NCBI RefSeq assembly: GCF_042679305.1
Contig: NZ_JBHTMP010000029.1
Span: 24,267-56,266, forward strand
Direction: 5' to 3'
Length of the DNA stretch: 32,000 nt
Source: Micromonospora sonneratiae
GTDB lineage: Bacteria > Actinomycetota > Actinomycetes > Mycobacteriales > Micromonosporaceae
Shown here: piece by piece, positions 1 through 24,600 of the stretch
Layout: the number at the start of each line of letters is the position of its first letter
Position numbering within the stretch: position 1 is the first letter of the stretch
The notes under the pieces: model-generated
Database searches by the model: none
What the model saw: the letters and a program-made list of their open reading frames with translations, nothing else
What the model was told of the DNA's origin: nothing
Program-made: the position numbers and the translations under genes

Positions 1-385
1 ACGGGAACCGTCTCGACAGATCCCGCATGCGCGCCCGGTTCCGGCGGTGCACGGTGAGGAAGCTGCGTGCGCGTGGAATCGCCCGGCTGCGAGTCGTGGC
101 TCGGGCCAGGTGCCCCGGAAGCTGGCCGAGCGCTGGCAAGTAGTGGCGGCCGTCGAAGTTGTACGCCACCGTCGTCACCTCGTTCGCGGTCAACCCGGCT
201 TCGCCCAGAAGCCAGGCGACGGCGTTGGCGGGGTACGCGTTGCTGTGCTTGACCCCGTCGAGACGTTCCTCCTCAGCGAAGCCGATCAGGTGGCCGTTGA
301 CCAGGAGCGCCGCGGCCGAGTCGTGCGTGTAGGCGCAGAGCCCGAGTACCACCTCGACACCTCGTACGGATCGTTGCGCGATCAT
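1..385 (-). CDS. O-carbamoyltransferase, NodU/CmcH family (5' part only; gene runs off the left edge)
   Basis: Not in the supplied ORF track because it is open at the window edge. My minus-strand translation from ATG 385-383 reads MIAQRSVRGVEVVLGLCAYTHDSAAALLVNGHLIGFAEEERLDGVKHSNAYPANAVAWLLGEAGLTANEVTTVAYNFDG... This matches the conserved NodU/CmcH N-terminus (GL..YHDSAAAL..G.....EEER....KH...P). Its ATG overlaps the TGA of the upstream gene (ATGA, 382-385). Confidence 0.7.
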   Translation of the reverse strand, partial: MIAQRSVRGVEVVLGLCAYTHDSAAALLVNGHLIGFAEEERLDGVKHSNAYPANAVAWLLGEAGLTANEVTTVAYNFDGRHYLPALGQLPGHLARATTRSRAIPRARSFLTVHRRNRARMRDLSRRFP

Positions 386-1329
386 CGCCGGCCTCCCGGC
401 GCCGTTGAGGTGAGGTGGTCGTACCAGCTCGACAGGGCACCACCGAGCGGATCGGGGGTGTCGGCGACGAGCTTGCGTGCCTGTTCGCGCTCACCCGACT
501 TCCAGGCGCGGTAGCTGGCGAGGGTCCGGCCGAACGCGTCCCACGTCGGGCCGTCGTTGGGGCTGCTGTTGCCAGCGATTATGCGCTGGAGGAGGACATC
601 GAGGCCCGGCCAGGGCACGGCGACCGCGTCCAGTTCCGCCGTGCCCGCAGTGCCGTGCAAGGAGGCGGCGGCTGCCTGCGCGTTGTCGGCGTACAAGTGC
701 AGGGAGTCGACGTGGTGGTGGTACTCGCCCAGCTCGACACCGAGCCAGCCGGCCATCAACTCCTGGATCAGCGTGGTGGTGAAGATGTCGTACGGGAAGC
801 CGAGCCACAGATCCTGACTGCGCATGCTGGTGTGCATGATTAACCGGCCGTCCCGGATGAAGAACCGGTAGCCGAGGGTGCAGGGCACGTCCCGGTAACC
901 ACGATGATCCCGAGACGGGTCGTGGAGCTGGATCACCCCTCGCCGCGACTCCGGGTCCTCGTGGAGTTGCCGCCGTACCGCGTCGAGCTGGTCGACCCGG
1001 CCGTCCCACCGGCGCAGCCGTGGCCCGTACGCGCCGCGCAGCACACCGTCATCCGCGTAATTCCGCAGCCTGTCGTTGTAGTCGAAGATCCATGGGGAGT
1101 CAGAGCCGGAGAGGATCCAGAGTGCCTCCGCGACCGCGAAGGCGGGATTGATCACCCGGACGGGCGGTACGTCGACGAGCCGCCGCCGGGGGTTGGTCAG
1201 GCACAGGTGCGCGCCGATCACCTCGGTTGTGGCAAGGTCGCGGGGGCGGGCTATCCGGCCGTTGAGCAGCACAGCCTGGCAGGCGGCGGTGAACAGCTCA
1301 CTCGCTGAGTCGGCGGTCAACACGATCAT
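382..1329 (-). CDS. Thymidylate-synthase-fold pyrimidine-nucleotide C5 transferase, predicted cytosine-specific ((d)CMP hydroxymethylase-like)
   Basis: 315-aa ORF colinear with ThyA motifs: EALWILSGSDS, VDQLDAVRRQLHEDPESRR, catalytic Cys150 in DVPCTLGYRFF, MRSQDLWLGFPYDIFTT and DSLHLYADN. AAAGGAG lies 6 nt upstream of ATG 1329. Asp181 (codon 787-789) sits where ThyA has the uracil-selecting Asn. Confidence 0.85.
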   Translation of the reverse strand: MIVLTADSASELFTAACQAVLLNGRIARPRDLATTEVIGAHLCLTNPRRRLVDVPPVRVINPAFAVAEALWILSGSDSPWIFDYNDRLRNYADDGVLRGAYGPRLRRWDGRVDQLDAVRRQLHEDPESRRGVIQLHDPSRDHRGYRDVPCTLGYRFFIRDGRLIMHTSMRSQDLWLGFPYDIFTTTLIQELMAGWLGVELGEYHHHVDSLHLYADNAQAAAASLHGTAGTAELDAVAVPWPGLDVLLQRIIAGNSSPNDGPTWDAFGRTLASYRAWKSGEREQARKLVADTPDPLGGALSSWYDHLTSTAPGGRR

Positions 1330-1351
1330 GGGCAGGCTCCTTTACAGGGGG

Positions 1352-2323
1352 TCAGGAGGTGAAGGCCGCGAGCCGTTCACTGGGAAGGTCGACTAGCCAG
1401 GCCGCCTGGCGGGCGAGGCCCTCGCGGAGCCCGACAGTGGGCCAGTAGCCGAGCAACCGGCCGGCACGGGTCAGGTCGGCCGCAGTCGCGGGTACGTCGC
1501 CCGGTTGGGCGGTCACGACCTTCACTGGCACCTGGCGGCCGGTGACCCTGGTCACCTCGTCGATCACCGCGAGCATCGAGACACTTGCGCCGCCGCCGAC
1601 GTTGAGCACCGCCGCCTGGGCGTCGAGGTGCGCGGCGGCGAGGGTCGCGGAGACGACGTCGCTGACGTAAGTGAACTCGCGGCGCTGGCTGCCATCGCCG
1701 AACAGGGTGAGCGGAAAGCCGGTGTAGGCGGCGAACAGGATTCGGCCGATCGCCATGTCGGGTCGCTGCCGAGGCCCGTACACAGTGAAGTAGCGCAACG
1801 CGACGACACTGAGCGGGCTGTCGGCCCGCCGGGCGTAGGCGAGACCAAGTTGCTCGGCGGCGAGCTTGCTCACTCCGTACGGGGAGACCGGGCTGGTCGG
1901 ATCGCCTTCGCGGCTTGGCCGGTCGGCCGGGCCGTAGACGCTCGACGAGGAGGCGACGATCAGCCGGCGGACACCCTGGCGGGTGCAGGCATCGAGCAAC
2001 CGGTGGGTGCCCAGCACGTTGGCCTGGGTGTAGTCGAGGAACTCGCGACTCCACGACTGCCGCACACCGGGCCGCGCGGCGAGGTGGAAAACGGTGTCGC
2101 AGCCGGCAACCGCGTCGTCGAGCTGGTCGGTGGCCAGGTCCAGGCAGTACGGCGTGAACAGCGGATTGGCGACGGCCCTTGCCAGGTTCTCGTCCGCGAG
2201 GGCGTGCTCGCCGAGCCGGCGGCGATCCAGGCCGGCGACCCTGATACCTCTGGCCAACAGCGCGTCGACCAGGTGTGAGCCGATGAACCCGGCCGCGCCG
2301 GTAACCAGGACGCGGGACATCAT
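1352..2323 (-). CDS. NAD-dependent NDP-sugar epimerase/dehydratase (extended SDR)
   Basis: 323 aa. Rossmann motif VLVTGAAGFIGSHL, Ser-rich SSSSVYG and catalytic YGVSK (YxxxK). GAAGGAAGGA RBS upstream. Start overlaps the stop of the upstream 60-aa ORF. Confidence 0.9.
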   Translation of the reverse strand: MMSRVLVTGAAGFIGSHLVDALLARGIRVAGLDRRRLGEHALADENLARAVANPLFTPYCLDLATDQLDDAVAGCDTVFHLAARPGVRQSWSREFLDYTQANVLGTHRLLDACTRQGVRRLIVASSSSVYGPADRPSREGDPTSPVSPYGVSKLAAEQLGLAYARRADSPLSVVALRYFTVYGPRQRPDMAIGRILFAAYTGFPLTLFGDGSQRREFTYVSDVVSATLAAAHLDAQAAVLNVGGGASVSMLAVIDEVTRVTGRQVPVKVVTAQPGDVPATAADLTRAGRLLGYWPTVGLREGLARQAAWLVDLPSERLAAFTS

Positions 2324-2502
2324 CGGTGGTCCTTCCTTCGCGGGTTCCGTGCGAAGAGCTGGTGCCAGACGTGGGTGTACAGGGGTGGGTCGATCTGTGG
2401 GAGCACGATCCGATCGGTCACGATCAGCGCGTCCGGTCGAGCCGAGCCGGTGGAACCGTCGACCGCCGACGCCGTGGCGTTGCGGGAGAGGTAGAGCGTC
2501 AT
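2320..2502 (-). CDS. Hypothetical 60-aa protein, first gene of the operon
   Basis: Internal ATG 2502 of the 2320..2631 ORF, preceded by GGAGGTG with 8-nt spacing. The N-terminal extension to 2631 is Arg/Pro-rich and looks non-coding. TGA overlaps the epimerase ATG. No family recognised (MTLYLSRNATASAVDGSTGSARPDALIVTDRIVLPQIDPPLYTHVWHQLFARNPRRKDHR). Confidence 0.4.
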   Translation of the reverse strand: MTLYLSRNATASAVDGSTGSARPDALIVTDRIVLPQIDPPLYTHVWHQLFARNPRRKDHR

Positions 2503-2954
2503 CGCGTTCTCACCTCCGGCCTGCGTAGGCCATAGGCGAGACGACGAGGGCGGACACCGGATTCGCCTGGTCGTCCGCCGGTGTGGCGGGCCCGCCGGAA
2601 GGATGGCGGGGCCGCCACGGAGAGGCGGCACCTGGGAGCACCCCGCCGGTCACCCGCCCGCGCAGCCCCGATGGCGGTACGCGGGCGAGGAAACAACCTC
2701 ACGGAACCGAAGCCGACCGCCACCACGGCGACGGAGCCCAGTGCAGGCGAAATCTGGTCGGTCCTGATAAATATGTCCACCATGAACCCCAGCCGTTGAC
2801 GATCGGGTCGGCGACCACCGGCGCCACCGAGTAACGGCAGCGTTCGATGCTCGGCATCAGTGAACCGTCCACAGCCGTGGACCGGTACCGTCCACTACCC
2901 GTCCAGTCGCAACCAGGTAGTGACGACCCGTAACCCCACTGGCTAGCGTGATCC

Positions 2955-4319
2955 ATGTCGACAGACGAAGCCCGGAGGTACGCGATGGCGGTACGGCGCT
3001 ATCCCCCGAACCGGCGGCTCGCGTGGGAGAGACTCCAACGTGGCTGGTCCTACGAGGAGATCACCGAACGCATCCGTACCGAGATGAGCCGAACCGGCGA
3101 AACCGACACCGGGCTCAACGCCAACACCGTCCGACGCTGGGAGATCGGCGAGCGGTGGCCGGACCCGCGCTACCGCAAGCACCTCGTCGCGATCCTCGGC
3201 AAGCCGGCGAGTGACCTCGGCCTGCTCACCCCCGACGAGCTGGCCGTACGCCCGGACGCGGAAACGCTGCACGAGTTCAGGAGGTTGTGGGACATGCTCA
3301 CCGGAGACGACAACGGCAACGGTTGGGACCGCGCGTCCGTACTACGCGCTCTCGTCGGTGCCAGCATGCTGCCCCTGGTCGCGCCACTGCTGTCCCTCGA
3401 CCCCGAAGCCGCATACGCCGACGGCAAGACCATCGACCCCGACGCGTACCGGCAGATCGTGCGCTGTCAGCGCGAGCTGTACTGGACCAGCCCGGCCCGG
3501 CCGCTTTACGAGGCCGCCTATGCGCATACCCAGCTCGGTATCGGGCTCATGCGCGCCGCTGCCGGTATCAGCCGCGCCAGTCTCGCCAGCGCCCTCGCGG
3601 AATCCGCGCTGCTCACTGCCCGGCTCGCCTTCTTCGACCTCAGCCAACCCGCCATCGCCGAACGCTGCTACGACGTCGCCCTCGCCGCCACCCGCGAAGC
3701 TGGCGACCACGCCTTGGCCGCAGCCGTCCTCGGTCATATGGCGTTCGTCCCCGCCTTCGGCCACGACCCGGCCAGCGCCCGGCCGCTGATCGACGCGGCC
3801 CTCCAGCACACCTGGCATGGCGTCAGCCCCATGGTCCGCTCCTGGCTGCACTGCGTCGCCTCCGAGGTGGAGGTGCGAGCCGGGGCGGCAGCCGCCAGCC
3901 GCCATCACATCGATCTGGCGGCGGGGGCGATCGACGGCGACTCCACTCCGCCGGAGTGGCTCGACTTCTACGACAACGGCCGCCTGCACTCCTTTGCCGG
4001 GTACGCCGCCCTCGCCAGCGGCGACCACCGCGAAGCCGTCGGCCAGCTCGACCGGGCGCTAGCCGGGCTCATCGGCACCAGCGCCAAGCAGCGCAGCGTT
4101 GTCCTCGCTGATCTCGCCACCGCGCACGGCAGTGACGGCGACCGGGCCGCCGACTACCTCAACCAGGCCGTTGACGCCCTCCACACCGACTGGTACGGCA
4201 CCGGCCTCGACCGGGTCCGCGCCGTCCGGCCCGTACTCGGTGACAGTCGGCACGGTGCCCGGCTCGACGAGCGGGTCGCCGCTCTCACCGCCGGCCGGGC
4301 GGCTCTTCCGGGTAGTTAG
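2955..4319 (+). CDS. XRE-family HTH transcriptional regulator with long alpha-helical TPR-like C-terminal domain
   Basis: 454 aa. The N-terminus (RRLAWERLQRGWSYEEITERI...NANTVRRWEIGERWPDPRYRKHLVAILG) is a typical actinobacterial HTH_31/XRE motif. The C-terminal 300 aa are Ala/Leu-rich helical repeats. Divergent from the 1-2502 operon across a 450-bp intergenic region. Confidence 0.8.
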   Translation: MSTDEARRYAMAVRRYPPNRRLAWERLQRGWSYEEITERIRTEMSRTGETDTGLNANTVRRWEIGERWPDPRYRKHLVAILGKPASDLGLLTPDELAVRPDAETLHEFRRLWDMLTGDDNGNGWDRASVLRALVGASMLPLVAPLLSLDPEAAYADGKTIDPDAYRQIVRCQRELYWTSPARPLYEAAYAHTQLGIGLMRAAAGISRASLASALAESALLTARLAFFDLSQPAIAERCYDVALAATREAGDHALAAAVLGHMAFVPAFGHDPASARPLIDAALQHTWHGVSPMVRSWLHCVASEVEVRAGAAAASRHHIDLAAGAIDGDSTPPEWLDFYDNGRLHSFAGYAALASGDHREAVGQLDRALAGLIGTSAKQRSVVLADLATAHGSDGDRAADYLNQAVDALHTDWYGTGLDRVRAVRPVLGDSRHGARLDERVAALTAGRAALPGS

Positions 4320-4972
4320 CCGGCTGACTCGTTGTGCTTGCGCACGAGGTCGGGCAGCTCAGCAAGCGAGTCAAACTGGAACAGGCAGCGGTCGCTGATC
4401 GCCCTGTCGTTGAGGATGTACCCCCACGGGCCGCGACGGACCAGGGCGGTCGCGATACCCGCCTCCTGCGCCGGCCGGATGTCGTTGTCCAACCGGTCGC
4501 CGACGTAGAGCACCTGGCCTGCCGGGCAGCCTGCCTCGGCTACCACCCGGTCGAAGAACGCCGCGGACGGCTTCTCCACACCCCAGCCGTCCGACGTGCC
4601 GATCACGTCGACCGGCAGGTCCAGGGCACGCAGGATCGTCTCCGCCCGCGCAGTCTGGTTACCGGCCAGGCCGACGCGCAGCCCTGACTCGCGCAGCGCG
4701 GCCAGGCACGGTCGGGCATCCGGGTACAGGTCTTCCTCGGTGAACGACTCCGGCTGTCCCGTCGCCGTCCGGCGCTGCCGCTCCACGGCCAGGTCGAACC
4801 CCGGCCGGAACACCTGAAACGTCTCGCGGTAGTCGAGGCCGCGAGCGATCACCGCCCCGAAGACGGCCGAGAAGGTGTGGCGCGGTACGCCGATCCAGTC
4901 CGCCCAGGTCCCGTACTCCCGGGACTCGTCAACGATCGTCTCACCCACATCGAAGAACACGCTCGTGATCAC
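4316..4972 (-). CDS. HAD-superfamily hydrolase (subfamily IA-like)
   Basis: 218 aa. Motif I FFDVGETIV, and motif IV VLYVGDRLDNDIRPAQEAG. The convergent stop overlaps the regulator stop by 4 nt. Confidence 0.85.
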   Translation of the reverse strand: MITSVFFDVGETIVDESREYGTWADWIGVPRHTFSAVFGAVIARGLDYRETFQVFRPGFDLAVERQRRTATGQPESFTEEDLYPDARPCLAALRESGLRVGLAGNQTARAETILRALDLPVDVIGTSDGWGVEKPSAAFFDRVVAEAGCPAGQVLYVGDRLDNDIRPAQEAGIATALVRRGPWGYILNDRAISDRCLFQFDSLAELPDLVRKHNESAG

Positions 4973-5645
4973 CTCTTGATTGTGCCCTCGCGCACGGAGA
5001 GTGATCTACGGGGGTCTGCGTGCCTGGAGAAGGTGGGTGCAGACGAGGCAGGCTCGGCTCGCCAGCGATGACCGCGAGGACGTACGGACGGAGCTTCGCG
5101 GAAAAGTCGGCACAGTTGTGTTGCCCGGACGTTAGGCACCACCGTCGGACCACCACGTACCCGGCCGGGCGGATCGATCCGCGTGGTACCGGATGTATGT
5201 TCCCCGTGCGGCTGTCCTGATCGCCAGGCCCCATAGGTCGATGCGTGGGCGCTCCGTAGGAGCGCTTGCTTTCGTTCTGCGCTCGCTTGAGCGGGCCGGT
5301 CGATCGGGTGCCGAGCGAGCTACAGGAGGCCGAAATGAAGGGTCTTCTTCCGGCGGGATGAGCCGAGGCCCCACCCGACTGCCGCATGTCGAGCGGCCGT
5401 AGGAGTGCCCTGTCACGGGTTGTGCCGGCCCCGGGTGCCGGTGCTGACGTCAGTCGCCTGTCCATTGCCGTCCATCTTTGTTCCCGCGACCGTGTCGCTC
5501 GCCCTGATGGACGTTTCAGAATGACACCACGCCCAGATGATCGGGTGGAACGATTACCACGGGGTGGGCTTTGTGGCATCAAGATCTACGCTGGCAGAGA
5601 AGATGGCGCTATGTAGCAACTAGCCAGGTTAACTTGCGACAGTGG

Positions 5646-6590
5646 CTACTGTCCGTGCCAAAGCGTGGCGCGGTTGCCGCTTAGTAGAAGCCGGAGCCTA
5701 TGCGTGAGTTCGTCTTTGAGTCTGACGTCGTCTGGGGCGAGGCGAATGAGGGCAGTGAGGGTGCTCAACTCACGTATGTCGAGGAGAACATTGTAACCGT
5801 CCCATAGGCGCAGGTCGTAGCCGTATGCGCGGGCGAAGAGGTCCACCGTGGCGGGAGATGTGCCGAAGCGGGGCTCCGCATAGGTGGGAATTAGGTCGAC
5901 CTCGCGCGGCCCGATGGAGACGGAGTCCCAGTCACCTAGCACGACGGAGTTACGATGACCATCGGTGTTCCATAGGAGATTGCCGACATAGAGGTCGGAA
6001 TGGATGAGGCCGCCCCCGAGTGGAAAGTCCAGCTGGTTGAAGGCCGCGCGTAGTTCATCGATGCGGACGGTCAACCACGCGTGCTCTTGATCTGTGACCG
6101 CAAGCCGGGCTGCAGGATCGGCGAGCGTTGCAGCTAATGATCGTAGTGGTTTGTAGTGAGGTAAATCCACTGAGGGGATAGGTAGTTTATGCAGCCGCGA
6201 AGCGATATGGCCGAGCGCCCTTGTGTCCGGCCAGCCGATGCCGGCGGGCTGCGGGTAGTAGCGCCAGAAGGTCACGACCACGGGGTGGCTGCAGGATTGG
6301 AAAATCATGGGCTGGTCAGCGCCGCTGGGGAGATCAGCGGGGGCGACGGTTGGGAATTCCTGCTGGATTAGCCCACGTATCACCTTAATAGAGGTTGTCG
6401 CCTTGGTGGTCGCACCTTCCCCGTATCCAATCCGAGCGACGACGGGAGCGCCGTCCAAGAGGTAAACGGCGTTCGCGAAGTGGCGGAGGAGCTTTGCGCC
6501 TGGCGGATATCCGGCCCGTTGACACGCCTGGTCCAGCAGACCCAATAGATCGGCAGGTGGGCGATTCGGGACGCGTTCATTTGTGGTCAC
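5646..6590 (-). CDS. APH-fold phosphotransferase (aminoglycoside phosphotransferase / kinase-like family)
   Basis: 314 aa. Catalytic loop GLIHSDLYVGNLLW (HxDxxxxN) and metal-binding VLGDWDSVSIGPREVDL. GTG start overlaps the upstream TGA (GTGA at 6587-6590). GC is lower than the flanking DNA. Confidence 0.85.
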   Translation of the reverse strand: MTTNERVPNRPPADLLGLLDQACQRAGYPPGAKLLRHFANAVYLLDGAPVVARIGYGEGATTKATTSIKVIRGLIQQEFPTVAPADLPSGADQPMIFQSCSHPVVVTFWRYYPQPAGIGWPDTRALGHIASRLHKLPIPSVDLPHYKPLRSLAATLADPAARLAVTDQEHAWLTVRIDELRAAFNQLDFPLGGGLIHSDLYVGNLLWNTDGHRNSVVLGDWDSVSIGPREVDLIPTYAEPRFGTSPATVDLFARAYGYDLRLWDGYNVLLDIRELSTLTALIRLAPDDVRLKDELTHRLRLLLSGNRATLWHGQ

Positions 6591-8002
6591 GAGGTGATCT
6601 CGCTACTGCTGCGGAAGCAGTTATCCCGTATATCATTGATCGTCTCGCGCATTGATTTCGCGATTTCGGAGCCGCGATATCTTGGTAACTCTAGTTCACG
6701 TCGGAGTTCGGACAAGGGCTGAAGAAGCGCCGGAATCTGCAACGACGGTGGCAATCTATAGACGACATCGAGCGCCTGGGCAGCACCGTCCAGGTCAACG
6801 CTGGGCTGGCGAACGCGGGCAGTGGAGACGTCAACCCAGGCGAGGGCTTCATCACCGTACGAGCGCTGGGTGGATGGTCCGCTTGCGTAGGCGCTGATTG
6901 TGGCGAGCGCGGTTCGCTCGGCGGCGGCTGGGCTGCCGATCCGCAGGAAGGCGGAACCGTCGTAGAAGTGTTGCTTGGCCAGTGCGAACGTCAAGATCCC
7001 GCCCAACTCGTCGAGCTCGTCCAGTTCGTCAGTGTATCGAGCCTCGATTAGGTCGCGAGCGGCAGAGGCGCGATCCATGGCTTCTATGGCCGCAGCGGTG
7101 TGACCCATCCGGCCATATGCGCGAGCCTCGATGCTGGCCAGCCGCACAAGGACTGTGCCAGGTATTTGCGCCTTCTGTGCATGGGTAAGGGCTTCTGCGG
7201 CGAACCGCAAACCCTCCTCTGGTCTGCCGTACCACTCACTGGTCATCGCCTGGTTGCCCAACACCCACGCTGTAAGTGTCTCGTTGTCGGCTTTCTCTGC
7301 GCACGCCAACGCGGCCTGTGCTTGGACTCTGGCTGCGTGTGGAAAGCCGAGGTCGCCCGAGGCATAGGCAAGCATCGCGCAAGTGGCGCCTGCGAGGAAA
7401 TACATGTCCTGTAGACGAGCAGGATCCGGCCGGTCTCTGATAAGCGAAAATAGGTCGTCACGCAGGTTTACAAGCTCCCGGAAGACCGGCGTTAGAGGGG
7501 AGTTGACGTAGTCGTGAGCCAAAGCAGCGACCCGTGCCCGTAACGATGTCAGAGGCCGCTCACCGATCCGAATCGAGTCAGCCCACATGGCGAACTCCGA
7601 TGACCTGCGAGACGCGGCGTCTACTATGTCCAGCGATTGAGGATCGCGCGGCAGGCTATCATCTGAGCTCGGCGGCTTGGCATCATCGGTTGCTAGTAAG
7701 TGATCAATAGCGTAGCCAAACTCGGCTTCCACGACTCGACATGTACTCGGTCGAGGCTCGGTGCCCACGTCGCCAGCTAGCCACCGGTCGAGTTGCCGAA
7801 GGCTTAGTGCGAAGTCGCGTATCCCAAGTGCTTGCGCCTTCCTGTTAAGGGCTTCCAAGGTCTGCTCACGAGTCAGGCGGCGTTGCCTCATGAGCCGTTG
7901 CATTCGTGTGATGCGCTGCCGGGCGGCCATAGCATCCCTCTCCAAAGCTGAGAAGTAGTTGCTGGCGGGCACACCGTAGCGAAAGCTATGTGGTGCCATC
8001 AT
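6587..8002 (-). CDS. XRE-family HTH regulator with TPR-like C-terminal domain (paralogue type of 2955..4319)
   Basis: 471 aa. N-terminal HTH region LTREQTLEALNRKAQALGIRDFALSLRQLDRWLAGDVGTEPRPSTCRVVEAEFG. Helical-repeat C-terminus (MYFLAGATCAMLAYASGDLG..., AQAALACAEKADNETLTAW...). Confidence 0.8.
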   Translation of the reverse strand: MMAPHSFRYGVPASNYFSALERDAMAARQRITRMQRLMRQRRLTREQTLEALNRKAQALGIRDFALSLRQLDRWLAGDVGTEPRPSTCRVVEAEFGYAIDHLLATDDAKPPSSDDSLPRDPQSLDIVDAASRRSSEFAMWADSIRIGERPLTSLRARVAALAHDYVNSPLTPVFRELVNLRDDLFSLIRDRPDPARLQDMYFLAGATCAMLAYASGDLGFPHAARVQAQAALACAEKADNETLTAWVLGNQAMTSEWYGRPEEGLRFAAEALTHAQKAQIPGTVLVRLASIEARAYGRMGHTAAAIEAMDRASAARDLIEARYTDELDELDELGGILTFALAKQHFYDGSAFLRIGSPAAAERTALATISAYASGPSTQRSYGDEALAWVDVSTARVRQPSVDLDGAAQALDVVYRLPPSLQIPALLQPLSELRRELELPRYRGSEIAKSMRETINDIRDNCFRSSSEITS

Positions 8003-11977: not shown

Positions 11978-14131
11978 ATGGACGTCCCCGATACGGCCGG
12001 CCCGCCGATCGTGGTGTGCCCCGACTGTCAGGGGCTCACCTTCGTAGTGAGGTCGTGCCACTGCCGCCACGGCGGTGACCAGTTCCTCATCGACGGGTCC
12101 CAGCCCTTCGGCGTCGACCGGGGCCCCTACCGTGACTGCGAGGTCTGCGACGGCGTCGGCAGCGTCAGCGAAGGTTGCCACCGCTGCGGCGGCAGCGGTG
12201 TATGCCGAGCGCAACTCGTCCTCACCGTAGCCAACATCGACTCGGGCCAGGTGGCCTCGGTCGACATCCTGCCCGGCATGCTCGCTCCTCGGCCGCTACC
12301 CAACGGCAGGTACGCCGCCGACCTGATGCCCGTGGTCCGTGGACTTGCCGGCAAAGTCGCCGCAGCCGAGGTCTTCGAGTCGATGATGCCGCAGACCCCC
12401 GTCACCGCGGACAGTGAACTGTTGGTCTTCATGCCACCGCAGTGGCACCCAGACCTACCCGAAACCGTTCGAGCGCTGCTCGGAGCCGTCGCGGTCGCCG
12501 ACGCCGCCCAGTACCGGCCCTGGCAGATCTACCTCGGACGCACCGGACCCGCATCACCAAACCTCAACCAACTGCTCACCGGTTTGTGCGCGGTAGCCGA
12601 CCAGGTCTGCCTAGACCTCGTCGTCGACCACCGGCGTGACACCTACGGAGATCCCGACAATCCGCTGCTGTGGTGGGGAATACGCTACGAGGCCCCAGAA
12701 TCAGCGGTGCCAGCCGACAGCCCGACCCACTGCAGCCTCCAGGAAGCGCTCACACATACCAACCCCGCTGAAGCCATCAGATCAGGCATCGGCATCGGTC
12801 GCAGACAGTCACCGGGATCCCGTCGCCATACCGCACCAGCGCACTGGGTCAACCCACCCCTGGCCGCCGCAGACCCGCCGCAGACCGTCGACTGGACCGA
12901 GGTTGCCCGACAGGTCACACAGGCCTGCGGAACCGGGCCCGGCGCGGTCGCCATCTGGCGTAACCGCCGCTGGCACTACAGCCCACTAGCCGAAACCGGC
13001 GTGACCGAAATCCTCAACCCGCAGGCCACCGGCCAGGTCACCGTACACACCGTGCCGATCCTGACACGAGCCCTGGAACCACCGCCGCCGACCTACTGGG
13101 GCCAGCCAATCCCGTCCCGCCGCTGTCCAGACTGCGCCAGCGGCACAGCGTGGAACCGATGCGGATGCGCCATCAACCTGCACGACGACCGCCCCGACCC
13201 AGACTGCGAGCTATGCAGCGGCACCGGCATACACGCACACCACTCCTGCATGACCTGCAGGGACATCACCCACATCCGCGCCGGAGTAGTTGTCACCCTC
13301 ACCGACCTGAACCAGCAGACCCTGCACATCAACTGGCGACCCGACGACAAGCCGACCACCCACCTGGTGGCGACCACCCCAGCAGGCACACCCGTTCTAC
13401 AACTCTCAGACGACTACCAGATCGCGAAGTGGACCCAACTGCTCGACACACCCAACACATCACTGATCGACCTGGCCACCGGCCTGGAACTCGACTCCAC
13501 GCTACGCGACGCACTGGTGATCACATCCGACCCGGCAGCCGACCCCGCCATCCAACACCTCCACCAAGCCAGTCGCGGCCGACCAGGAGCACGCCTGCTC
13601 GTACACACCAGCCAACCACCAAACCCCTCCACCGACCTACTCCAACTCCTCCGGCTCATCCTCGGCCTCGGCCTCACCGCCGAAATCACCGCAGAAAGCC
13701 ACCGGCACCGCGCCGGCGAGCCACTGTCCGTCCAAGGCGAACGCTGGCTCCTCAACGCCGTCCCACCCGGCACCCCCGTCAACGAGGTACAAACACCGAT
13801 CCACACCACGCTGCATCAAGCCACCAGCAACCTGAACAAGTACCTACCCACACTCCTTCACCAACTCGCGTCCGCCATGCCGCACCAGCCGCTGGCCGTC
13901 CCACAACAACCCACACCAGCAAACGTCGAAGTCGACAACCCAGAGACACTTATGCGCCGCCTCGCCGACCACTACCAAAACCACGCCGTCATGGCCCGCA
14001 TCGAGCACCACCGCTGCCGCATCTACGCCGGTGGCTTCGAGTACGCACAACTGGTCGCCACCGCACCCACCCTGCCCACAGCAGTCCGCGCGCTACTCGG
14101 CACCACCACCACAGGTGGCGAAAGCCCATAA
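11978..14131 (+). CDS. Large hypothetical protein with two DnaJ-CR-like zinc-finger clusters
   Basis: 717 aa with consistent high-GC3 codon usage. Cluster 1 (aa 14-76, nt 12017-12205): CPDCQG, CHC, CEVCDGVG, CHRCGGSG. Cluster 2 (aa 383-427, nt 13124-13258): CPDCASG, CGC, CELCSGTG, CMTC. No enzymatic motif recognised. Confidence 0.8.
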   Translation: MDVPDTAGPPIVVCPDCQGLTFVVRSCHCRHGGDQFLIDGSQPFGVDRGPYRDCEVCDGVGSVSEGCHRCGGSGVCRAQLVLTVANIDSGQVASVDILPGMLAPRPLPNGRYAADLMPVVRGLAGKVAAAEVFESMMPQTPVTADSELLVFMPPQWHPDLPETVRALLGAVAVADAAQYRPWQIYLGRTGPASPNLNQLLTGLCAVADQVCLDLVVDHRRDTYGDPDNPLLWWGIRYEAPESAVPADSPTHCSLQEALTHTNPAEAIRSGIGIGRRQSPGSRRHTAPAHWVNPPLAAADPPQTVDWTEVARQVTQACGTGPGAVAIWRNRRWHYSPLAETGVTEILNPQATGQVTVHTVPILTRALEPPPPTYWGQPIPSRRCPDCASGTAWNRCGCAINLHDDRPDPDCELCSGTGIHAHHSCMTCRDITHIRAGVVVTLTDLNQQTLHINWRPDDKPTTHLVATTPAGTPVLQLSDDYQIAKWTQLLDTPNTSLIDLATGLELDSTLRDALVITSDPAADPAIQHLHQASRGRPGARLLVHTSQPPNPSTDLLQLLRLILGLGLTAEITAESHRHRAGEPLSVQGERWLLNAVPPGTPVNEVQTPIHTTLHQATSNLNKYLPTLLHQLASAMPHQPLAVPQQPTPANVEVDNPETLMRRLADHYQNHAVMARIEHHRCRIYAGGFEYAQLVATAPTLPTAVRALLGTTTTGGESP

Positions 14132-17681: not shown

Positions 17682-18535
17682 AGCACTGGGCGAGCAAACT
17701 GCAAATACTGGCGGCGGCCAGTCTTTGCACCGCGGTTCTCCTCAGCGCACCAGCACACGCAGGCGATGGAGTCGGCGGGGTTGACTGCTCAGAGTTTCCC
17801 AGCGCGCAAGAGTGCGACGTAGTAGCCGGCACACCAGGTAACGGTGGGAGCACCGGTGATGGCAGTGCCGGGAACGGCGAAGGTTCGGGCAGTGGTGGGG
17901 GTAGTACGCCTTGCCGTTATGTGCGTTTGCCGCAGCAGGATCCGCCTCCGGCTGGTGCGGGTGCGGGGGGCTGGTATGTGCAGGTGTGCCGTGTGGACGG
18001 CAGTGTGTCGACGAGCCCGCCGTTGTGGCTGGCGGCGGGGCAGGTGGCTGATCCGCAGGCGTTGGCGCAGGTGGCTGTGTCGCGGCTGCGGCTTCCGGCG
18101 CCGGCGATCCGGCGGAATCCCGCTTCGGCTGCGGGGGTGATGGTCCAGGTGCCGGTGTGGCTGTGGGTGGACGGGTCGACGTGGGGGGCGCGTTCGGCGA
18201 CGGCGTCGGTGCCGGGCATGAGCGTGACCGCGACCGCGACGCCGGTCCGGGTGGTGTGGACCCCGGGCGATGGGACCGCTGATGTGGTGTGCCACGGGCC
18301 GGGTACCCCATGGCGTGCGGGTACCGATCCGCGAGCGGTGTCACCGTGCGGTCACACGTATCGGACCAGTTCTGCGGGCGTGCCGGGTAACAAGTTCACG
18401 CTCCGGGCGACGGTGACGTGGTCGGTGTCGTGGGCTGGTGGTGGGCGAAGCGGCACGGTGCCGTCGTTGATGACGTCGTCGTCGGTGGGGTTGCCGGTGG
18501 CGCAGTCGCAGTCGGTCGTGACGGGGCAACGATGA
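17672..18535 (+). CDS. Secreted protein of unknown function (signal peptide, Gly/Ser-rich linker, Cys pairs)
   Basis: ATG 17672 (M53 of track ORF 17516..18535). MQLKHWASKLQILAAASLCTAVLLSAPAHA is a signal peptide. High GC3. Confidence 0.7.
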   Translation: MQLKHWASKLQILAAASLCTAVLLSAPAHAGDGVGGVDCSEFPSAQECDVVAGTPGNGGSTGDGSAGNGEGSGSGGGSTPCRYVRLPQQDPPPAGAGAGGWYVQVCRVDGSVSTSPPLWLAAGQVADPQALAQVAVSRLRLPAPAIRRNPASAAGVMVQVPVWLWVDGSTWGARSATASVPGMSVTATATPVRVVWTPGDGTADVVCHGPGTPWRAGTDPRAVSPCGHTYRTSSAGVPGNKFTLRATVTWSVSWAGGGRSGTVPSLMTSSSVGLPVAQSQSVVTGQR

Positions 18536-19215
18536 GCGTCACGGTCGACCGTGCTCGGATCCCGGTTCCGGTGGCACAGCCGTCGAAGGATGCCGCGCGG
18601 CGGTCTGGTCAGCGCAGCGGTCGGCGGGTCGTGCTCGGGGCGTTGTTGGTGCTGCTGAGCGTGGTCGTGTTTTGGCAGGTGGATCTGCGGGCGAACGAGG
18701 GGCGGTCGTTCCTGGCTGCTGCGCGGTCGGTGGCCGCCGGTCAGGTGATTGCTGATGTCGATGTGCAGGTGGTGCGGGTGTCGAACGTGTCTGGGCTGGT
18801 GTTGCTGCCGGCTGACCAGCGTAGTCAGGTCGTGGGCCGTACTGCGGTGGTGCCGCTGGCGGTAGGCAGTTTGCTGACGGCGGCGCAGGTGGGTCCGGTG
18901 GCGTGGCCGCCGGCTGGTCAGGCGGTGATCGCGTTGCCGGTCAAACCTGGTCGTGCTCCGGCGGGGTTGGCGGCGGGAGCACGGGTTGTGGTTCTTGTGG
19001 TGCCTCCGGCGACGGTGGGGCAGGCGGCGGGCCCGGTGGGTAGTAGCGGGTCTGATGGGGTGCGGCGGGGTGTGGCCACGGTGGTGTCGGTCGAGGCCGG
19101 CGCGGATCAGGTGGGGAGCCTGTTGGTGACTCTGCTGCTGGCCGCCGACGCGGCGGAGGCGGTCGCTTCGGCTCCGGGGGATGTGTCGCTGGTGCAGCTC
19201 GGACCGGAAGGGTAG
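18532..19215 (+). CDS. CpaB/RcpC-like Flp pilus assembly protein (N-terminal TM + SAF-like domain)
   Basis: ATG 18532 overlaps the upstream TGA (ATGA). TM segment VVLGALLVLLSVVVFW followed by AARSVAAGQVIADVDVQVVRV...VVGRTAVVPLAVGSLLTAAQV, typical of the SAF/CpaB family. Confidence 0.7.
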   Translation: MSVTVDRARIPVPVAQPSKDAARRSGQRSGRRVVLGALLVLLSVVVFWQVDLRANEGRSFLAAARSVAAGQVIADVDVQVVRVSNVSGLVLLPADQRSQVVGRTAVVPLAVGSLLTAAQVGPVAWPPAGQAVIALPVKPGRAPAGLAAGARVVVLVVPPATVGQAAGPVGSSGSDGVRRGVATVVSVEAGADQVGSLLVTLLLAADAAEAVASAPGDVSLVQLGPEG

Positions 19216-19219
19216 TGCC

Positions 19220-22981: not shown

Positions 22982-23015
22982 ACCTGACCGAATCCATACA
23001 GAAGGAGTACCCGTC

Positions 23016-23216
23016 GTGCCCAGAGCACTCGCCCTACTGACCCTGGTCCGCCTCACCCTGACCGACCGGATCCGCCGCCTACGTGACAGCGGCGACCGCG
23101 GCTCCGAAACCACCGAGAAAGTGCTGTGGATCGCGTTCCTGGTCATACTCGTCGTCGGCGTGTACGCGATCTTCCAATCCAAGATCATCACGAAGATCAC
23201 CGGCATCAACCTGTAA
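23016..23216 (+). CDS. Flp-type prepilin-like small protein
   Basis: 66 aa. GTG start 8 nt after GAAGGAG. Basic leader, then DRG|SETTEKVLWIAFLVILVVGVYAIF (Gly, Glu at +5, hydrophobic helix). Confidence 0.6.
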   Translation: MPRALALLTLVRLTLTDRIRRLRDSGDRGSETTEKVLWIAFLVILVVGVYAIFQSKIITKITGINL

Positions 23217-23219
23217 ACG

Positions 23220-24572: not shown

Positions 24573-24600
24573 CCCCACCTATCTCCGACCGGGAGTCCCA

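What the first reader, a model, noticed from the sequence alone, without database searches (positions are those of the whole stretch)
1..2502. Thymidylate-synthase homologue with the Asn-to-Asp cytosine switch, coupled to a carbamoyltransferase and a sugar epimerase
The 315-aa protein aligns motif by motif with ThyA and keeps the catalytic Cys (Cys150 in DVPCTLGY, codon 880-882). At the position matching E. coli ThyA Asn177 (GLPFNIASY) it has Asp181 (GFPYDIFTT, codon 787-789). In this superfamily Asn selects uracil and Asp selects cytosine, as in T4 dCMP hydroxymethylase Asp179 and CMP hydroxymethylases of nucleoside-antibiotic pathways such as MilA.

Four genes are joined by ATGA-type overlaps or a strong RBS: the 60-aa ORF, the SDR epimerase, this enzyme and a NodU/CmcH carbamoyltransferase. 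This suggests a pathway that builds a 5-hydroxymethyl-cytosine nucleotide and then decorates it by O-carbamoylation and/or sugar chemistry. It could be a nucleoside natural product or a nucleotide/DNA hypermodification route. The cluster is cut by the window edge.
Basis: partly seen in the sequence, partly recalled or inferred. Interest (0 to 1): 0.65.

Follow-up and report, generated by a model that had tools for sequence, protein, structure and literature searches.

The report
Phage-like hydroxymethylcytosine sugar pathway in actinomycetes
The thymidylate-synthase look-alike is real and has the residue pattern of the phage T4 enzyme that makes 5-hydroxymethyl-dCMP. It starts a ten-gene operon, conserved across actinomycetes but uncharacterised, that also holds a relative of a phage DNA glucosyltransferase, a sugar epimerase and a carbamoyltransferase.

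Summary
This covers the ORFs, the ATGA overlaps, the RBS, Cys150 and Asp181 (= E. coli ThyA Asn177 = MilA Asp186 = T4 gp42 Asp179).

New findings:
1. The enzyme carries the full T4 gp42 signature. Asp147 sits at the ThyA Leu143 position, Arg129 and Ser171 are the deoxyribose-type residues, and Asp173 is retained. This predicts dCMP to 5-hm-dCMP. It argues against MilA-type CMP use (Lys/Ala) and against 5-hydroxy-dCMP synthesis.
2. The source contig (Micromonospora sonneratiae) shows a 10-gene operon: peptide, MoeE5-like UDP-glucuronate 4-epimerase, hydroxymethylase, GdmN/NovN/TobZ-like O-carbamoyltransferase, a GT-B glycosyltransferase, an NMP-kinase-like P-loop protein, a SAM methyltransferase, an APH kinase, a His-phosphatase and a second APH kinase.
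3. T4 DNA beta-glucosyltransferase is the glycosyltransferase's best PDB match. Clear homologues lie next to hydroxymethylase genes in phage replication modules.
4. The cassette recurs in at least 30 actinomycete genomes from about 9 genera.
5. The 60-aa ORF is what RefSeq calls "AmcA cyclophane RiPP". It occurs only in Micromonosporaceae, and no maturase lies nearby.

Most likely this is an orphan pathway to a glycosylated, carbamoylated 5-hydroxymethyl-deoxycytidine nucleotide or nucleoside. Modification of the cell's own DNA is the main rival.

The parts
1..385 (-). N-terminal 128 codons of a 578-aa NodU/CmcH/TobZ-type O-carbamoyltransferase. It is cut by the window edge; the full gene is at L001 10945-12681.
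   Evidence: ATGA overlap with the upstream stop. Pfam gives Carbam_trans_N for the fragment. The full protein gives Carbam_trans_N 9.9e-35 and Carbam_trans_C 1.5e-60. Best PDB matches are GdmN 2.3e-81, NovN 7e-80 and TobZ 1.6e-66.
382..1329 (-). ThyA-superfamily pyrimidine C5 hydroxymethylase, 315 aa. Predicted reaction: dCMP to 5-hydroxymethyl-dCMP. Key residues: Glu68, Arg129, Asp147, Cys150, Arg170, Ser171, Asp173, Asp181, His211, Tyr213.
   Evidence: Pfam PF00303 1.6e-24. All NCBIfam thymidylate-synthase equivalogs score far below cut-off. Best PDB match is MilA at 1.8e-35, against 9.8e-20 for the best true TS. The residue signature is identical to T4 gp42 and to 21 phage homologues.
1330..1351 (-). 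22-nt spacer holding the AAGGAG ribosome-binding site for the hydroxymethylase.
   Evidence: Read directly in the sequence.
1352..2323 (-). Extended-SDR nucleotide-sugar epimerase, 323 aa. Most similar to UDP-glucuronate 4-epimerases.
   Evidence: Pfam Epimerase 1.9e-57. Best PDB matches are MoeE5 at 2e-78 and 6zl6 at 1.2e-62, against about 1e-36 or weaker for chains deposited as UDP-glucose 4-epimerase.
2320..2502 (-). 60-aa peptide gene. It has a conserved N-terminus (MT[LV]Y[LVI]SR[NH]A), a conserved core ([DE]PPL[LYF]T[HF]VW[QRH][RQ]) and a basic tail.
   Evidence: NCBIfam NF041725 'multiple cyclophane-containing RiPP AmcA' scores 60.9 bits against a cut-off of 40. Orthologues score 60-81 bits and carry that name in RefSeq. 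It is present in 20 of 22 Micromonosporaceae loci, always abutting the SDR, and absent elsewhere. Only 6 representatives exist in 1.84 billion proteins.
2503..2954 (.). Divergent intergenic region between the operon and the NsdA-family regulator. Presumed promoter region.
   Evidence: No Rfam match. No sigma-70 consensus site, as expected for a high-GC actinomycete.
2955..4319 (+). NsdA-family TPR-like regulator, 454 aa, transcribed divergently from the operon.
   Evidence: NCBIfam NF053720 5.5e-54. It keeps this position in most Micromonospora and Plantactinospora loci at 80-93% identity.
4316..4972 (-). HAD-IA phosphatase, 218 aa, with weak similarity to non-canonical pyrimidine 5'-nucleotidases (YjjG). 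A conserved neighbour of the cassette.
   Evidence: NCBIfam hits. Conserved next to the regulator in Micromonosporaceae. A HAD gene also lies just upstream of the cassette in Streptomyces L031.
5646..6590 (-). APH-family kinase, 314 aa, in a lower-GC stretch. Possibly associated with the cluster.
   Evidence: Pfam APH in the contig gene table. Homologues at 30-40% identity lie about 5 kb from the cassette in Streptomyces and Streptacidiphilus loci L031, L034, L037 and L041. It is not conserved in other Micromonospora loci.
6587..8002 (-). Second NsdA-family TPR regulator (471-aa ORF; called as 381 aa on the contig). Possibly associated with the cluster.
   Evidence: NF053720 3.7e-29. It is paired with the APH gene here and in Streptomyces L031 and L034.

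Best explanation
The finding is the head of a ten-gene, 8.5-kb operon in Micromonospora sonneratiae. I propose that it makes a hypermodified 5-hydroxymethyl-deoxycytidine nucleotide or nucleoside as a specialised metabolite.

Step 1 is strongly supported by sequence. The ThyA homologue attacks C6 of a cytosine nucleotide with Cys150. Asp181 selects cytosine, and the one-carbon unit comes from methylene-tetrahydrofolate. Water then enters, because Asp147 replaces the water-excluding Leu143 of ThyA, and a 5-hydroxymethyl group results.

Arg129 and Ser171 are the residues that exclude a 2'-OH in ThyA and in T4 gp42. The predicted substrate is therefore dCMP.

Step 2 is inferred. The MoeE5-like epimerase converts UDP-glucuronate to UDP-galacturonate. 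The T4-BGT-like GT-B glycosyltransferase puts that sugar on the new hydroxymethyl group.

Step 3 is inferred. The GdmN/NovN/TobZ-like enzyme O-carbamoylates a hydroxyl, either on the sugar or the CH2OH itself. The class-I SAM methyltransferase adds a methyl group.

Step 4 is inferred. The NMP-kinase-like P-loop protein, two or three APH kinases, the His-phosphatase and the HAD phosphatase set the phosphorylation state. This may be cryptic phosphorylation or self-protection.

Two NsdA-family regulators control the locus. The 60-aa peptide is a Micromonosporaceae-only add-on of unknown role.
For: **Enzyme identity.**
- PMC5175136 states that Asp186 accompanies cytosine substrates and that Lys133'/Ala176 (ribose) contrast with Arg/Ser (deoxyribose). 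It also reports that the MilA A176S/K133R double mutant loses CMP activity.
- PMC13326640 states that L143D/E correlates with hydroxymethyl products and that D169N marks 5-hydroxy-dCMP synthases. The window protein keeps Asp173.

**Operon.** The contig gene table is. Genes overlap or lie within 51 nt of each other, and family assignments are.

**Glycosyltransferase.**
- The AF2 model has pLDDT 90.7.
- The top four Foldseek PDB hits are T4 BGT.
- T4 BGT is the best of only six weak sequence-profile hits in the PDB, at E=0.067.
- hhalign against phage GTs that sit directly upstream of phage hydroxymethylase genes gives probability 99.9% and E=8e-36.
- The phage module in L102 reads NTP-PPase, thymidylate-kinase-like protein, BGT-like GT, TS-like enzyme, DNA polymerase.

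**Epimerase and carbamoyltransferase.** (MoeE5, 2e-78).

**Conservation.** The cassette recurs in at least 30 loci from about 9 genera.

**Small-molecule context.**
- Enzymes 61-62% identical sit in a mildiomycin/blasticidin-like cluster. That cluster has a CGA synthase fused to a MilB-like domain, a BlsE-like radical SAM enzyme and two DegT aminotransferases. In a rough neighbour-joining tree they nest inside the type-A clade.
- The carbamoyltransferase's closest solved relatives all act in antibiotic pathways.
- NsdA-type regulators flank the locus.
- The cluster has no dCTPase and no DNA polymerase, and no PADLOC defence-system match apart from a generic methyltransferase-domain hit (mad2).
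Against: - No transporter, resistance gene or N-glycosidase lies in the operon, which is unusual for an exported nucleoside antibiotic.
- Both the hydroxymethylase and the glycosyltransferase have their nearest non-actinobacterial relatives in phage DNA-replication modules. There the paradigm is modification of DNA, not of free nucleotides.
- The margin of T4 BGT over other GT-B enzymes in Foldseek is small (1.8e-10 against 7e-10). The acceptor of the GT, of the carbamoyltransferase and of the methyltransferase is therefore pure inference.
- The cassette is unusually conserved for a secondary-metabolite cluster, at 50-65% identity across families.
- The Arg/Ser 'deoxy' rule rests on one mutagenesis study. 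One Streptomyces orthologue has Gly at position 171.
- No product is known, and no paper on the cluster was found.
Confidence: 0.5

Rival explanations
1. Self-DNA hypermodification. The cassette would be a cellular counterpart of the T4 pathway. In that case dCMP becomes hm-dCMP, the P-loop kinase and host NDK make hm-dCTP, and hmC is incorporated during replication. The BGT-like enzyme then glycosylates hmC in DNA. Carbamoylation and methylation of the DNA-bound sugar follow, possibly under developmental control by the NsdA regulators.
For: - The residue signature is identical to T4 gp42 and to all 21 phage homologues checked.
- The GT's best PDB match is a DNA glucosyltransferase.
- GT homologues sit between a dNMP-kinase-like gene and the hydroxymethylase gene, next to a DNA polymerase, in phage contigs.
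- The cassette has an NMP-kinase-like P-loop protein with pI 10.3.
- No N-glycosidase and no exporter is present.
- Phage hypermodification pathways are known to decorate DNA after replication (PMC13326640).
Against: - No dCTPase, MazG or polymerase is present to bias incorporation, unlike phage L102.
- Two phosphatases are present, one of them YjjG-like. They would work against dNTP formation.
- The same enzyme family serves an evident small-molecule nucleoside cluster.
- The carbamoyltransferase's nearest solved relatives act on small molecules.
- No de novo hmC is known in bacterial chromosomes (my own knowledge).
- GT net charge does not help: both bacterial and phage versions are near neutral.
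Confidence: 0.25
2. RiPP tailoring cluster. The 60-aa AmcA-labelled peptide would be the substrate, and the downstream enzymes (GT, carbamoyltransferase, methyltransferase, APH kinases) would modify it. It might even be joined to the modified nucleotide as a peptide-nucleotide conjugate.
For: - The curated NCBIfam RiPP-precursor model scores above cut-off, and RefSeq uses that name for the orthologues.
- The peptide is translationally coupled to the SDR.
- Its ends are conserved and its middle is variable.
- Carbamoyltransferases occur in some RiPP clusters (abstract of PMC13174530).
- On a Geobacillus plasmid, TS-like genes sit beside two PqqD/RRE genes, an APH gene and an ABC transporter.
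Against: - The peptide is absent from every cassette outside Micromonosporaceae and from 2 of 22 loci inside the family. The enzymes therefore do not need it.
- No radical SAM enzyme, P450, RRE or protease lies within 10 kb.
- No ThyA-family enzyme is known to act on peptides (my own knowledge).
- No paper describing AmcA or AmcB could be found.
Confidence: 0.07
3. Housekeeping or alternative thymidylate synthase, or a dCMP C5-methyltransferase. This is what the RefSeq name 'thymidylate synthase' implies.
For: It belongs to PF00303, and RefSeq names most family members 'thymidylate synthase'.
Against: - All seven NCBIfam TS equivalog models score far below their cut-offs, for example 78.6 against 174.55 bits.
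- Asn177 is replaced by Asp and Leu143 by Asp.
- The gene is embedded in an accessory cassette flanked by transposases.
- Its distribution among genomes is patchy.
Confidence: 0.03

Closest known systems
Phage T4 hydroxymethylcytosine pathway: gp42 dCMP hydroxymethylase, gp1 dNMP kinase and beta-glucosyltransferase
   Same: The active-site signature is the same: Glu, Arg, Asp at the L143 position, Cys, Arg-Ser-x-Asp, Asp at the N177 position, His and Tyr. T4 BGT is the best PDB match of the GT-B glycosyltransferase. A P-loop NMP-kinase-like gene lies in the same operon. Uncultured-phage versions of the hydroxymethylase-GT pair are true homologues of both bacterial proteins.
   Different: The cassette is chromosomal and cellular, in high-GC actinomycetes. 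The hydroxymethylase is only about 26% identical to gp42 and carries a 90-aa C-terminal extension. There is no dCTPase or polymerase. It adds a uronate epimerase, a carbamoyltransferase, a methyltransferase, APH kinases and phosphatases. A DNA substrate is unproven.
MilA / BcmA CMP hydroxymethylases (mildiomycin and bacimethrin pathways)
   Same: MilA is the best solved-structure match (1.8e-35). Both have Asp at the base-recognition site and at the Leu143 position. Both act in actinomycete specialised metabolism. A sister cluster (type B) has MilB-like, CGA-synthase and BlsE-like genes.
   Different: MilA Lys133' and Ala176, which give the CMP preference, are Arg129 and Ser171 here. The window's cassette has no MilB-type N-glycosidase or CGA synthase. 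In the rough tree the family forms its own clade and MilA groups elsewhere, with other phage sequences.
Moenomycin F-ring tailoring: MoeE5 UDP-GlcA 4-epimerase with MoeM5 carbamoyltransferase
   Same: The SDR's closest solved relative is MoeE5 (2e-78). It is paired with a NodU-family O-carbamoyltransferase, a glycosyltransferase and a methyltransferase. From my own knowledge of moenomycin, that combination makes a carbamoylated, methylated galacturonic acid unit.
   Different: The acceptor scaffold is different: a nucleotide here, a phosphoglycerate lipid there. The methyltransferase here is a class-I SAM enzyme, not a radical SAM enzyme. No amidotransferase is present. The analogy is functional only.
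5-hydroxy-dCMP synthases of RB69, DLP3 and RL38JI phages (flavin-dependent ThyA homologues)
   Same: They belong to the ThyA superfamily with N177D and an acidic residue at L143. They are followed by glycosylation of the new oxygen, using phage-made NDP-sugars (PMC13326640).
   Different: Their diagnostic D169N substitution is absent: Asp173 is kept in the window protein and in all relatives examined.
NCBIfam NF041725 'multiple cyclophane-containing RiPP AmcA' (the 60-aa ORF only)
   Same: It scores above the curated cut-off. The orthologues in this same genomic position are the proteins RefSeq names AmcA.
   Different: No cyclophane-forming maturase (radical SAM/SPASM or P450) lies within 10 kb. 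The other AmcA models do not match. I found no literature to verify the label.

Membership tests
ThyA superfamily (Pfam PF00303) | Profile match above the gathering score, with the catalytic Cys and the phosphate-binding Arg residues | tested here: met
   86.9 bits against a gathering score of 24.3. Cys150, Arg129, Arg170, His211 and Tyr213 are invariant in the alignment with E. coli ThyA and T4 gp42.
Canonical thymidylate synthase (dUMP methylase) | Asn at ThyA position 177, a bulky hydrophobic residue at position 143, and an equivalog-level HMM score | tested here: not met
   Asp181 and Asp147 occupy those positions. All seven NCBIfam TS equivalogs score below their cut-offs.
Cytosine-specific C5 hydroxymethylases (T4 gp42 / MilA kind) | Asp at the N177 position (cytosine selection) | tested here: met
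   Asp181 aligns with MilA Asp186 and with gp42 Asp179. The rule is stated in PMC5175136.
Cytosine-specific C5 hydroxymethylases (T4 gp42 / MilA kind) | Acidic residue at the L143 position, which lets water reach the exocyclic methylene | tested here: met
   Asp147 lies three residues before Cys150, as in MilA and gp42. The rule is stated in PMC13326640.
Cytosine-specific C5 hydroxymethylases (T4 gp42 / MilA kind) | Formation of a 5-hydroxymethyl product from methylene-THF | not testable with these tools
   Needs an enzyme assay with LC-MS.
MilA/BcmA-type CMP (ribo) hydroxymethylase | Lys at MilA position 133' and Ala at position 176, which make room for and bind the ribose | tested here: not met
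   Arg129 and Ser171 occupy those positions in the window protein. The same holds in 7 of the 8 actinobacterial proteins and all 21 phage proteins tabulated; Streptomyces L031 has Gly171.
5-hydroxy-dCMP synthase | Asn at ThyA position 169 | tested here: not met
   Asp173 is retained.
T4 beta-glucosyltransferase-like glycosyltransferase (the 348-aa protein at L001 12663-13709) | GT-B fold with BGT as the nearest solved structure | tested here: met
   The model has pLDDT 90.7. Foldseek ranks 1-4 are BGT, with E about 2e-10 and TM 0.64-0.66. The margin over other GT-B enzymes is small. The profile-to-sequence hit is only E=0.067.
T4 beta-glucosyltransferase-like glycosyltransferase | Acts on 5-hydroxymethylcytosine, in DNA for T4 | not testable with these tools
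   Only contextual support exists. Homologues abut hydroxymethylase genes in 5 phage contigs.
NodU/CmcH/TobZ O-carbamoyltransferases | Both the Carbam_trans_N (kinase-like) and Carbam_trans_C (YrdC-like) domains | tested here: met
   9.9e-35 and 1.5e-60 on the full protein from the contig. PDB matches are GdmN, NovN and TobZ. Only the first 128 residues lie in the window.
UDP-glucuronate 4-epimerase (MoeE5-like) | Closest relatives are characterised UDP-GlcA 4-epimerases rather than GalE or dehydratases | tested here: inconclusive
   MoeE5 scores 2e-78 and 6zl6 scores 1.2e-62, against about 1e-36 or weaker for chains deposited as UDP-glucose 4-epimerase. No curated equivalog model was passed, and the identity of 6zl6 as a UDP-GlcA epimerase is from my memory.
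AmcA cyclophane RiPP precursor (NF041725) | HMM score above the curated cut-off | tested here: met
   60.9 bits against 40. Orthologues score 60-81 bits.
AmcA cyclophane RiPP precursor (NF041725) | A cyclophane-forming maturase encoded nearby | tested here: not met
   No radical SAM enzyme, P450 or RRE lies in L001 within 10 kb on either side, or in the rest of the window.

The most novel reading that the evidence does not exclude
Filamentous actinomycetes may carry a chromosomal, regulated counterpart of the phage T4 pathway that hypermodifies their own DNA. In this reading hmC is incorporated through the nucleotide pool. It is then glycosylated with a uronic acid by a BGT-like enzyme and further carbamoylated and methylated. 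That would be the first cell-encoded de novo hmC hypermodification of a bacterial chromosome, and a new DNA base.
Probability: 0.2. Interest if true: 0.92.

Novelty: new variant of a known kind. Interest (0 to 1): 0.7.

Why it matters
ThyA-family cytosine hydroxymethylases are known in two settings: phage DNA hypermodification and a few nucleoside antibiotics. This cassette joins the two. It combines a phage-type dCMP hydroxymethylase and a BGT-like glycosyltransferase with antibiotic-type sugar tailoring (uronate epimerase, O-carbamoyltransferase, methyltransferase). It sits in the chromosomes of many filamentous actinomycetes.

- **If the product is a free nucleotide or nucleoside:** it is a widespread, unmined class of deoxycytidine-based metabolite.
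- **If the product is in DNA:** it is a new bacterial DNA base.

Either way the enzymes would be new tools for installing and decorating 5-hmC. The RefSeq names for these genes, 'thymidylate synthase' and 'hypothetical protein', also appear to be wrong or uninformative.

Tried and rejected
- **Peptide homologue search.** Searching the 5.8-billion-protein set with the 60-aa peptide returned only itself and used one capped search. The exhaustive representative search found only 5 other proteins, two of them very long and probably spurious.
- **AmcA/AmcB literature.** Three searches found nothing relevant. The RiPP label could not be traced to an experiment.
- **Literature on the cassette.** Searches for the cassette or for a hydroxymethylcytosine-carbamoyl product found nothing.
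- **Charge of the glycosyltransferase.** I tried net charge and pI as a proxy for DNA binding. Bacterial and phage versions are both near neutral, so it is uninformative.
- **Defence systems.** PADLOC gave only a generic methyltransferase-domain hit.
- **RNA elements.** Rfam found no riboswitch or leader upstream of the operon. The promoter and terminator scans were empty.
- **Cultured phages.** tblastn of the phage GT against cultured-phage genomes found no match. No phage with chemically known DNA could be linked to the pair.
- **Bacimethrin-like route.** I considered hydroxymethylase plus 'glycosyltransferase' plus methyltransferase plus kinase and set it aside. The GT is BGT-like rather than an N-glycosidase, and the Lys/Ala CMP signature is missing.
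- **Streptomyces 623-aa protein.** This protein lies upstream of the Streptomyces cassette and has no Pfam or PDB match.

Full report
**1. The observation**

- A 60-aa ORF lies at 2502-2320, with GGAGGTG 8 nt before its ATG.
- A 323-aa SDR lies at 2323-1352. Its ATG overlaps the peptide's TGA as ATGA.
- A 315-aa ThyA-like ORF lies at 1329-382, after a 22-nt spacer holding AAGGAG.
- A carbamoyltransferase starts at 385, again with an ATGA overlap, and runs off the window.

The codon positions given for Cys150 (882-880) and Asp181 (789-787) are right. Third-position GC is 0.86-0.87, typical of real genes in this 68-70% GC DNA. Pfam gives Thymidylat_synt 1.6e-24, Epimerase 1.9e-57 and Carbam_trans_N 1.1e-6. 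No terminator-like site and no Rfam element lies in or before the operon.

**2. What the ThyA homologue is**

All seven NCBIfam thymidylate-synthase equivalog models score far below their cut-offs. Among solved structures the best match is the CMP hydroxymethylase MilA (1.8e-35). The best true thymidylate synthase reaches only 9.8e-20.

I mapped residues using the HMMER alignments, a MAFFT alignment of 16 family members with E. coli ThyA and T4 gp42, and a wider alignment. The numbering agrees with the literature I read. The mapping is:

| Window protein | E. coli ThyA | MilA | T4 gp42 |
|---|---|---|---|
| Glu68 | – | Glu68 | – |
| Arg129 | Arg126' | Lys133' | Arg123' |
| Asp147 | Leu143 | – | – |
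| Cys150 | Cys146 | Cys155 | – |
| Arg170-Ser171 | Arg166-Ser167 | Ala176 (for Ser) | Ser169 |
| Asp173 | Asp169 | – | – |
| Asp181 | Asn177 | Asp186 | Asp179 |
| His211, Tyr213 | His207, Tyr209 | – | – |

The MilA structure paper (PMC5175136) makes three relevant statements.
- The Asp goes with cytosine substrates and the Asn with uracil substrates.
- Lys133' and Ala176 are shared by the ribonucleotide users MilA and BcmA, while deoxyribonucleotide users have Arg and Ser.
- The A176S/K133R double mutant of MilA loses CMP activity and keeps dCMP activity.

A 2026 paper on phage cytosine modification (PMC13326640) adds two more rules.
- An acidic residue at the Leu143 position goes with hydroxymethyl rather than methyl products.
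- Asn at position 169 marks the flavin-dependent 5-hydroxy-dCMP synthases.

By these rules the window enzyme is cytosine-specific, hydroxymethylating, deoxyribose-type and not a 5-hydroxylase. This is the T4 gp42 signature, not the MilA one.

The same ten residues are found in all 21 phage homologues tabulated and in seven of the eight actinobacterial proteins in that table. The eighth, Streptomyces L031, has Gly at position 171.

**3. The rest of the cluster**

The protein's exact sequence is on a 307-kb contig of Micromonospora sonneratiae, GCA_054780955.1. I read the part beyond the window edge as locus L001. The operon has ten genes in 8.5 kb, all overlapping or at most 51 nt apart:

1. 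The 60-aa peptide.
2. The SDR.
3. The hydroxymethylase.
4. A 578-aa carbamoyltransferase. It gives Carbam_trans_N 9.9e-35 and Carbam_trans_C 1.5e-60, and its PDB matches are GdmN 2.3e-81, NovN 7e-80 and TobZ 1.6e-66.
5. A 348-aa protein with only a weak CgeB/YkvP glycosyltransferase hit.
6. A 173-aa P-loop protein. It resembles the adenylate-kinase-like 'DNA topology modulation' family (2.8e-47, below cut-off) and, weakly, cytidylate kinase.
7. A class-I SAM methyltransferase.
8. An APH-family kinase.
9. A histidine phosphatase.
10. A second APH kinase.

Transposase genes follow. The SDR is far closer to the moenomycin UDP-glucuronate 4-epimerase MoeE5 (2e-78) than to chains deposited as UDP-glucose 4-epimerase (about 1e-36 or weaker).

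Upstream and divergent lies an NsdA-family TPR regulator at window 2955-4319. A HAD phosphatase with weak similarity to pyrimidine 5'-nucleotidases follows at 4316-4972. Then, in a lower-GC stretch, come an APH kinase and a second NsdA-family regulator at 5646-8002.

**4. The 348-aa protein is a relative of phage hmC glycosyltransferases**

- It has 957 homologues and is 62-66% identical across many actinomycete genera.
- A profile of 28 of them matches only six PDB sequences, all weakly. T4 DNA beta-glucosyltransferase is the best, at E=0.067.
- An AlphaFold model (pLDDT 90.7) is a GT-B fold. Its four best Foldseek matches in the PDB are all T4 BGT, with E about 2e-10 and TM 0.64-0.66. Other GT-B enzymes follow closely.
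- I scanned viral contigs with the hydroxymethylase alignment and found 76 loci at 30-45% identity.
- In five of these, a full-length homologue of the 348-aa protein lies immediately upstream of the hydroxymethylase gene.
- A profile-profile comparison of the bacterial and phage glycosyltransferases gives 99.9% probability, E=8e-36 and 30% identity over 301 columns. The shared motifs are GYSFWGFLG, TPDG, EWRW..GRN and VYVGN.Y.RD.
- In one such contig (L102) the gene order is primase, SSB, NTP pyrophosphohydrolase, thymidylate-kinase-like protein, BGT-like GT, hydroxymethylase, DNA polymerase. This is the classic layout of a phage that replaces C with glycosylated hmC.

These phage contigs have 30-53% GC, so they are not recent donors.

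**5. Distribution**

A scan of one genome per species found 41 loci. The same cassette (type A) is present in Micromonospora, Plantactinospora, Pseudonocardia, Amycolatopsis, Nocardia, Nocardiopsis, Streptomyces, Nonomuraea and Streptacidiphilus.
- The core order is hydroxymethylase, carbamoyltransferase, GT, P-loop protein, then usually the methyltransferase, an APH kinase, the His-phosphatase and a second APH kinase.
- The SDR sits either first or last.
- The methyltransferase, the phosphatase and the second APH are sometimes missing.

Proteins 61-62% identical to the window enzyme also occur in a second context, type B. Its genes are:
- a cytosylglucuronate synthase (266 bits) fused to a MilB-like nucleoside deoxyribosyltransferase domain;
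- a BlsE-like radical SAM enzyme;
- two DegT aminotransferases;
- a methyltransferase;
- a His-phosphatase;
- an APH kinase.

This is evidently a mildiomycin/blasticidin-type nucleoside cluster. In a rough neighbour-joining tree the type-B enzymes nest inside the type-A clade. The actinobacterial clade sits among uncultured-phage sequences, and MilA groups elsewhere.

**6. The 60-aa ORF**

It passes the curated NCBIfam model NF041725, 'multiple cyclophane-containing RiPP AmcA', with 60.9 bits against a cut-off of 40. Its orthologues score 60-81 bits and carry that name in RefSeq.

An HMM built from 13 orthologues finds the ORF in 20 of 22 Micromonospora and Plantactinospora loci. It always abuts the SDR. 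It is absent from every other locus. Only six representatives exist among 1.84 billion proteins.

The N-terminus (MTVYVSRHA) and a Trp-containing core (DPPLLT[HF]VWQR) are conserved, and the middle is variable. No radical SAM enzyme, P450 or RRE lies within 10 kb. I found no paper on AmcA or AmcB.

I conclude that it is a real, translated, lineage-specific gene whose RiPP label is unverified. The cassette does not depend on it.

**7. Mechanism proposed, and how sure each step is**

- **Cytosine-nucleotide C5 hydroxymethylation by the ThyA homologue:** about 0.85.
- **dCMP rather than CMP as substrate:** about 0.6. This rests on one mutagenesis study and the identity with gp42.
- **Glycosylation of the new hydroxymethyl group by the BGT-like GT, using a uronic acid supplied by the epimerase:** about 0.45. 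The support is homology, phage synteny and the MoeE5 match. The acceptor is inferred.
- **O-carbamoylation and methylation of that sugar or of the CH2OH:** inferred from family membership only.
- **Kinases and phosphatases managing the phosphate state:** inferred.

Two outcomes are possible for the product: a free nucleotide or nucleoside, or modified DNA. I favour the small molecule at 0.5, for these reasons.
- The same enzyme family serves an obvious small-molecule cluster.
- The tailoring enzymes' nearest solved relatives are from antibiotic pathways.
- NsdA-type regulators flank the locus.
- Two phosphatases are present.
- No dCTPase or polymerase is present.

The DNA reading keeps 0.25, for these reasons.
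- Both core enzymes are homologous to a phage DNA-modification pair.
- The signature is the deoxy type.
- There is no N-glycosidase and no exporter.
- A basic NMP-kinase-like protein is present.

A peptide-centred (RiPP) reading gets 0.07 and a housekeeping or methylase reading gets 0.03.

**8. Comparison with what is known, and novelty**

It works like T4 gp42 plus BGT, and like MilA in its setting. It is not a member of the MilA/BcmA CMP-specific group, because the Lys/Ala test fails. It is not a 5-hydroxy-dCMP synthase, because the D169N test fails. It is not a true thymidylate synthase.

The epimerase-carbamoyltransferase-methyltransferase trio recalls moenomycin F-ring tailoring. I found no publication on this cassette in the searchable library, and PADLOC assigns it to no known defence system.

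I rate it a new variant of a known kind: a cellular cassette that merges phage-type hmC chemistry with antibiotic-type sugar tailoring. Interest is 0.7. It would rise to about 0.9 if the product proves to be in DNA.

Noticed in passing
L122 (Geobacillus thermodenitrificans plasmid pGeo12a, NZ_CP020031.1 27309-39922): Two ThyA-like genes flank an APH kinase gene. One of them is 36% identical to the window enzyme. They lie in a run with QueA, NUDIX, an AAA ATPase, two PqqD-family (RiPP recognition element) genes, a CPBP protease, a CYTH protein and an ABC transporter. It looks like a peptide-linked nucleotide pathway in a Firmicute.
   Followed up: no
L043 2214-14096 (Streptomyces sp. NBC_01538, CP109391.1) and L025 (Pseudonocardiaceae MAG): An orphan mildiomycin/blasticidin-like cluster. 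It has a CGA synthase fused to a MilB-like domain, two DegT aminotransferases, a methyltransferase, a BlsE-like radical SAM enzyme and a hydroxymethylase with the deoxy-type Arg/Ser signature. DUF6271, His-phosphatase and APH genes are also present. In L025 the P-loop kinase and the His-phosphatase are fused.
   Followed up: partly
L102 3391-11319 and L082, L093, L097, L100 (IMG/VR contigs): Uncultured phages (30-53% GC) carry a new BGT-related glycosyltransferase family with a GYSFWGFLG motif. It sits directly upstream of a gp42-signature hydroxymethylase and next to the DNA polymerase. No cultured phage in the GenBank set has this GT.
   Followed up: partly
window 5000-8000: This stretch has lower GC (0.60-0.63 against about 0.70 around it). 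It holds an APH kinase and a second NsdA-family regulator. The pair is absent from the other Micromonospora loci, but homologues (30-40% identity) lie near the cassette in Streptomyces loci.
   Followed up: partly
L031, residue equivalent to Ser171: One Streptomyces type-A orthologue has Gly instead of Ser at the position that decides ribose versus deoxyribose in MilA. This hints that sugar specificity may vary within the family.
   Followed up: no
L031 8133-10004 and equivalent ORFs in L030, L034, L037, L040, L041: In the Streptomyces-type cassettes a 623-aa protein with no Pfam or PDB match ends exactly at the hydroxymethylase start codon. It takes the place that the SDR and the peptide occupy in Micromonospora.
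   Followed up: partly
window 11978-14131 (+): A 717-aa ORF has several DnaJ-like CxxCxGxG zinc-finger motifs and no Pfam match. It lies in a region of strong strand composition skew (GC skew -0.35 and AT skew +0.36 at 13-14 kb).
   Followed up: no
window 18418-27687 (+): A Tad/Flp-type pilus locus: a SAF-domain CpaB-like protein, a CpaF-like T2SSE ATPase, two TadB/C-like T2SSF proteins and several small ORFs. A 1028-aa BTAD-domain regulator follows. It is unrelated to the finding.
   Followed up: no
L001 17609-20235 (beyond the window's left edge): Transposase genes (Transposase_mut and DDE_Tnp_ISAZ013) lie directly after the last operon gene in this strain. This fits an accessory, mobile history for the cassette.
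   Followed up: no
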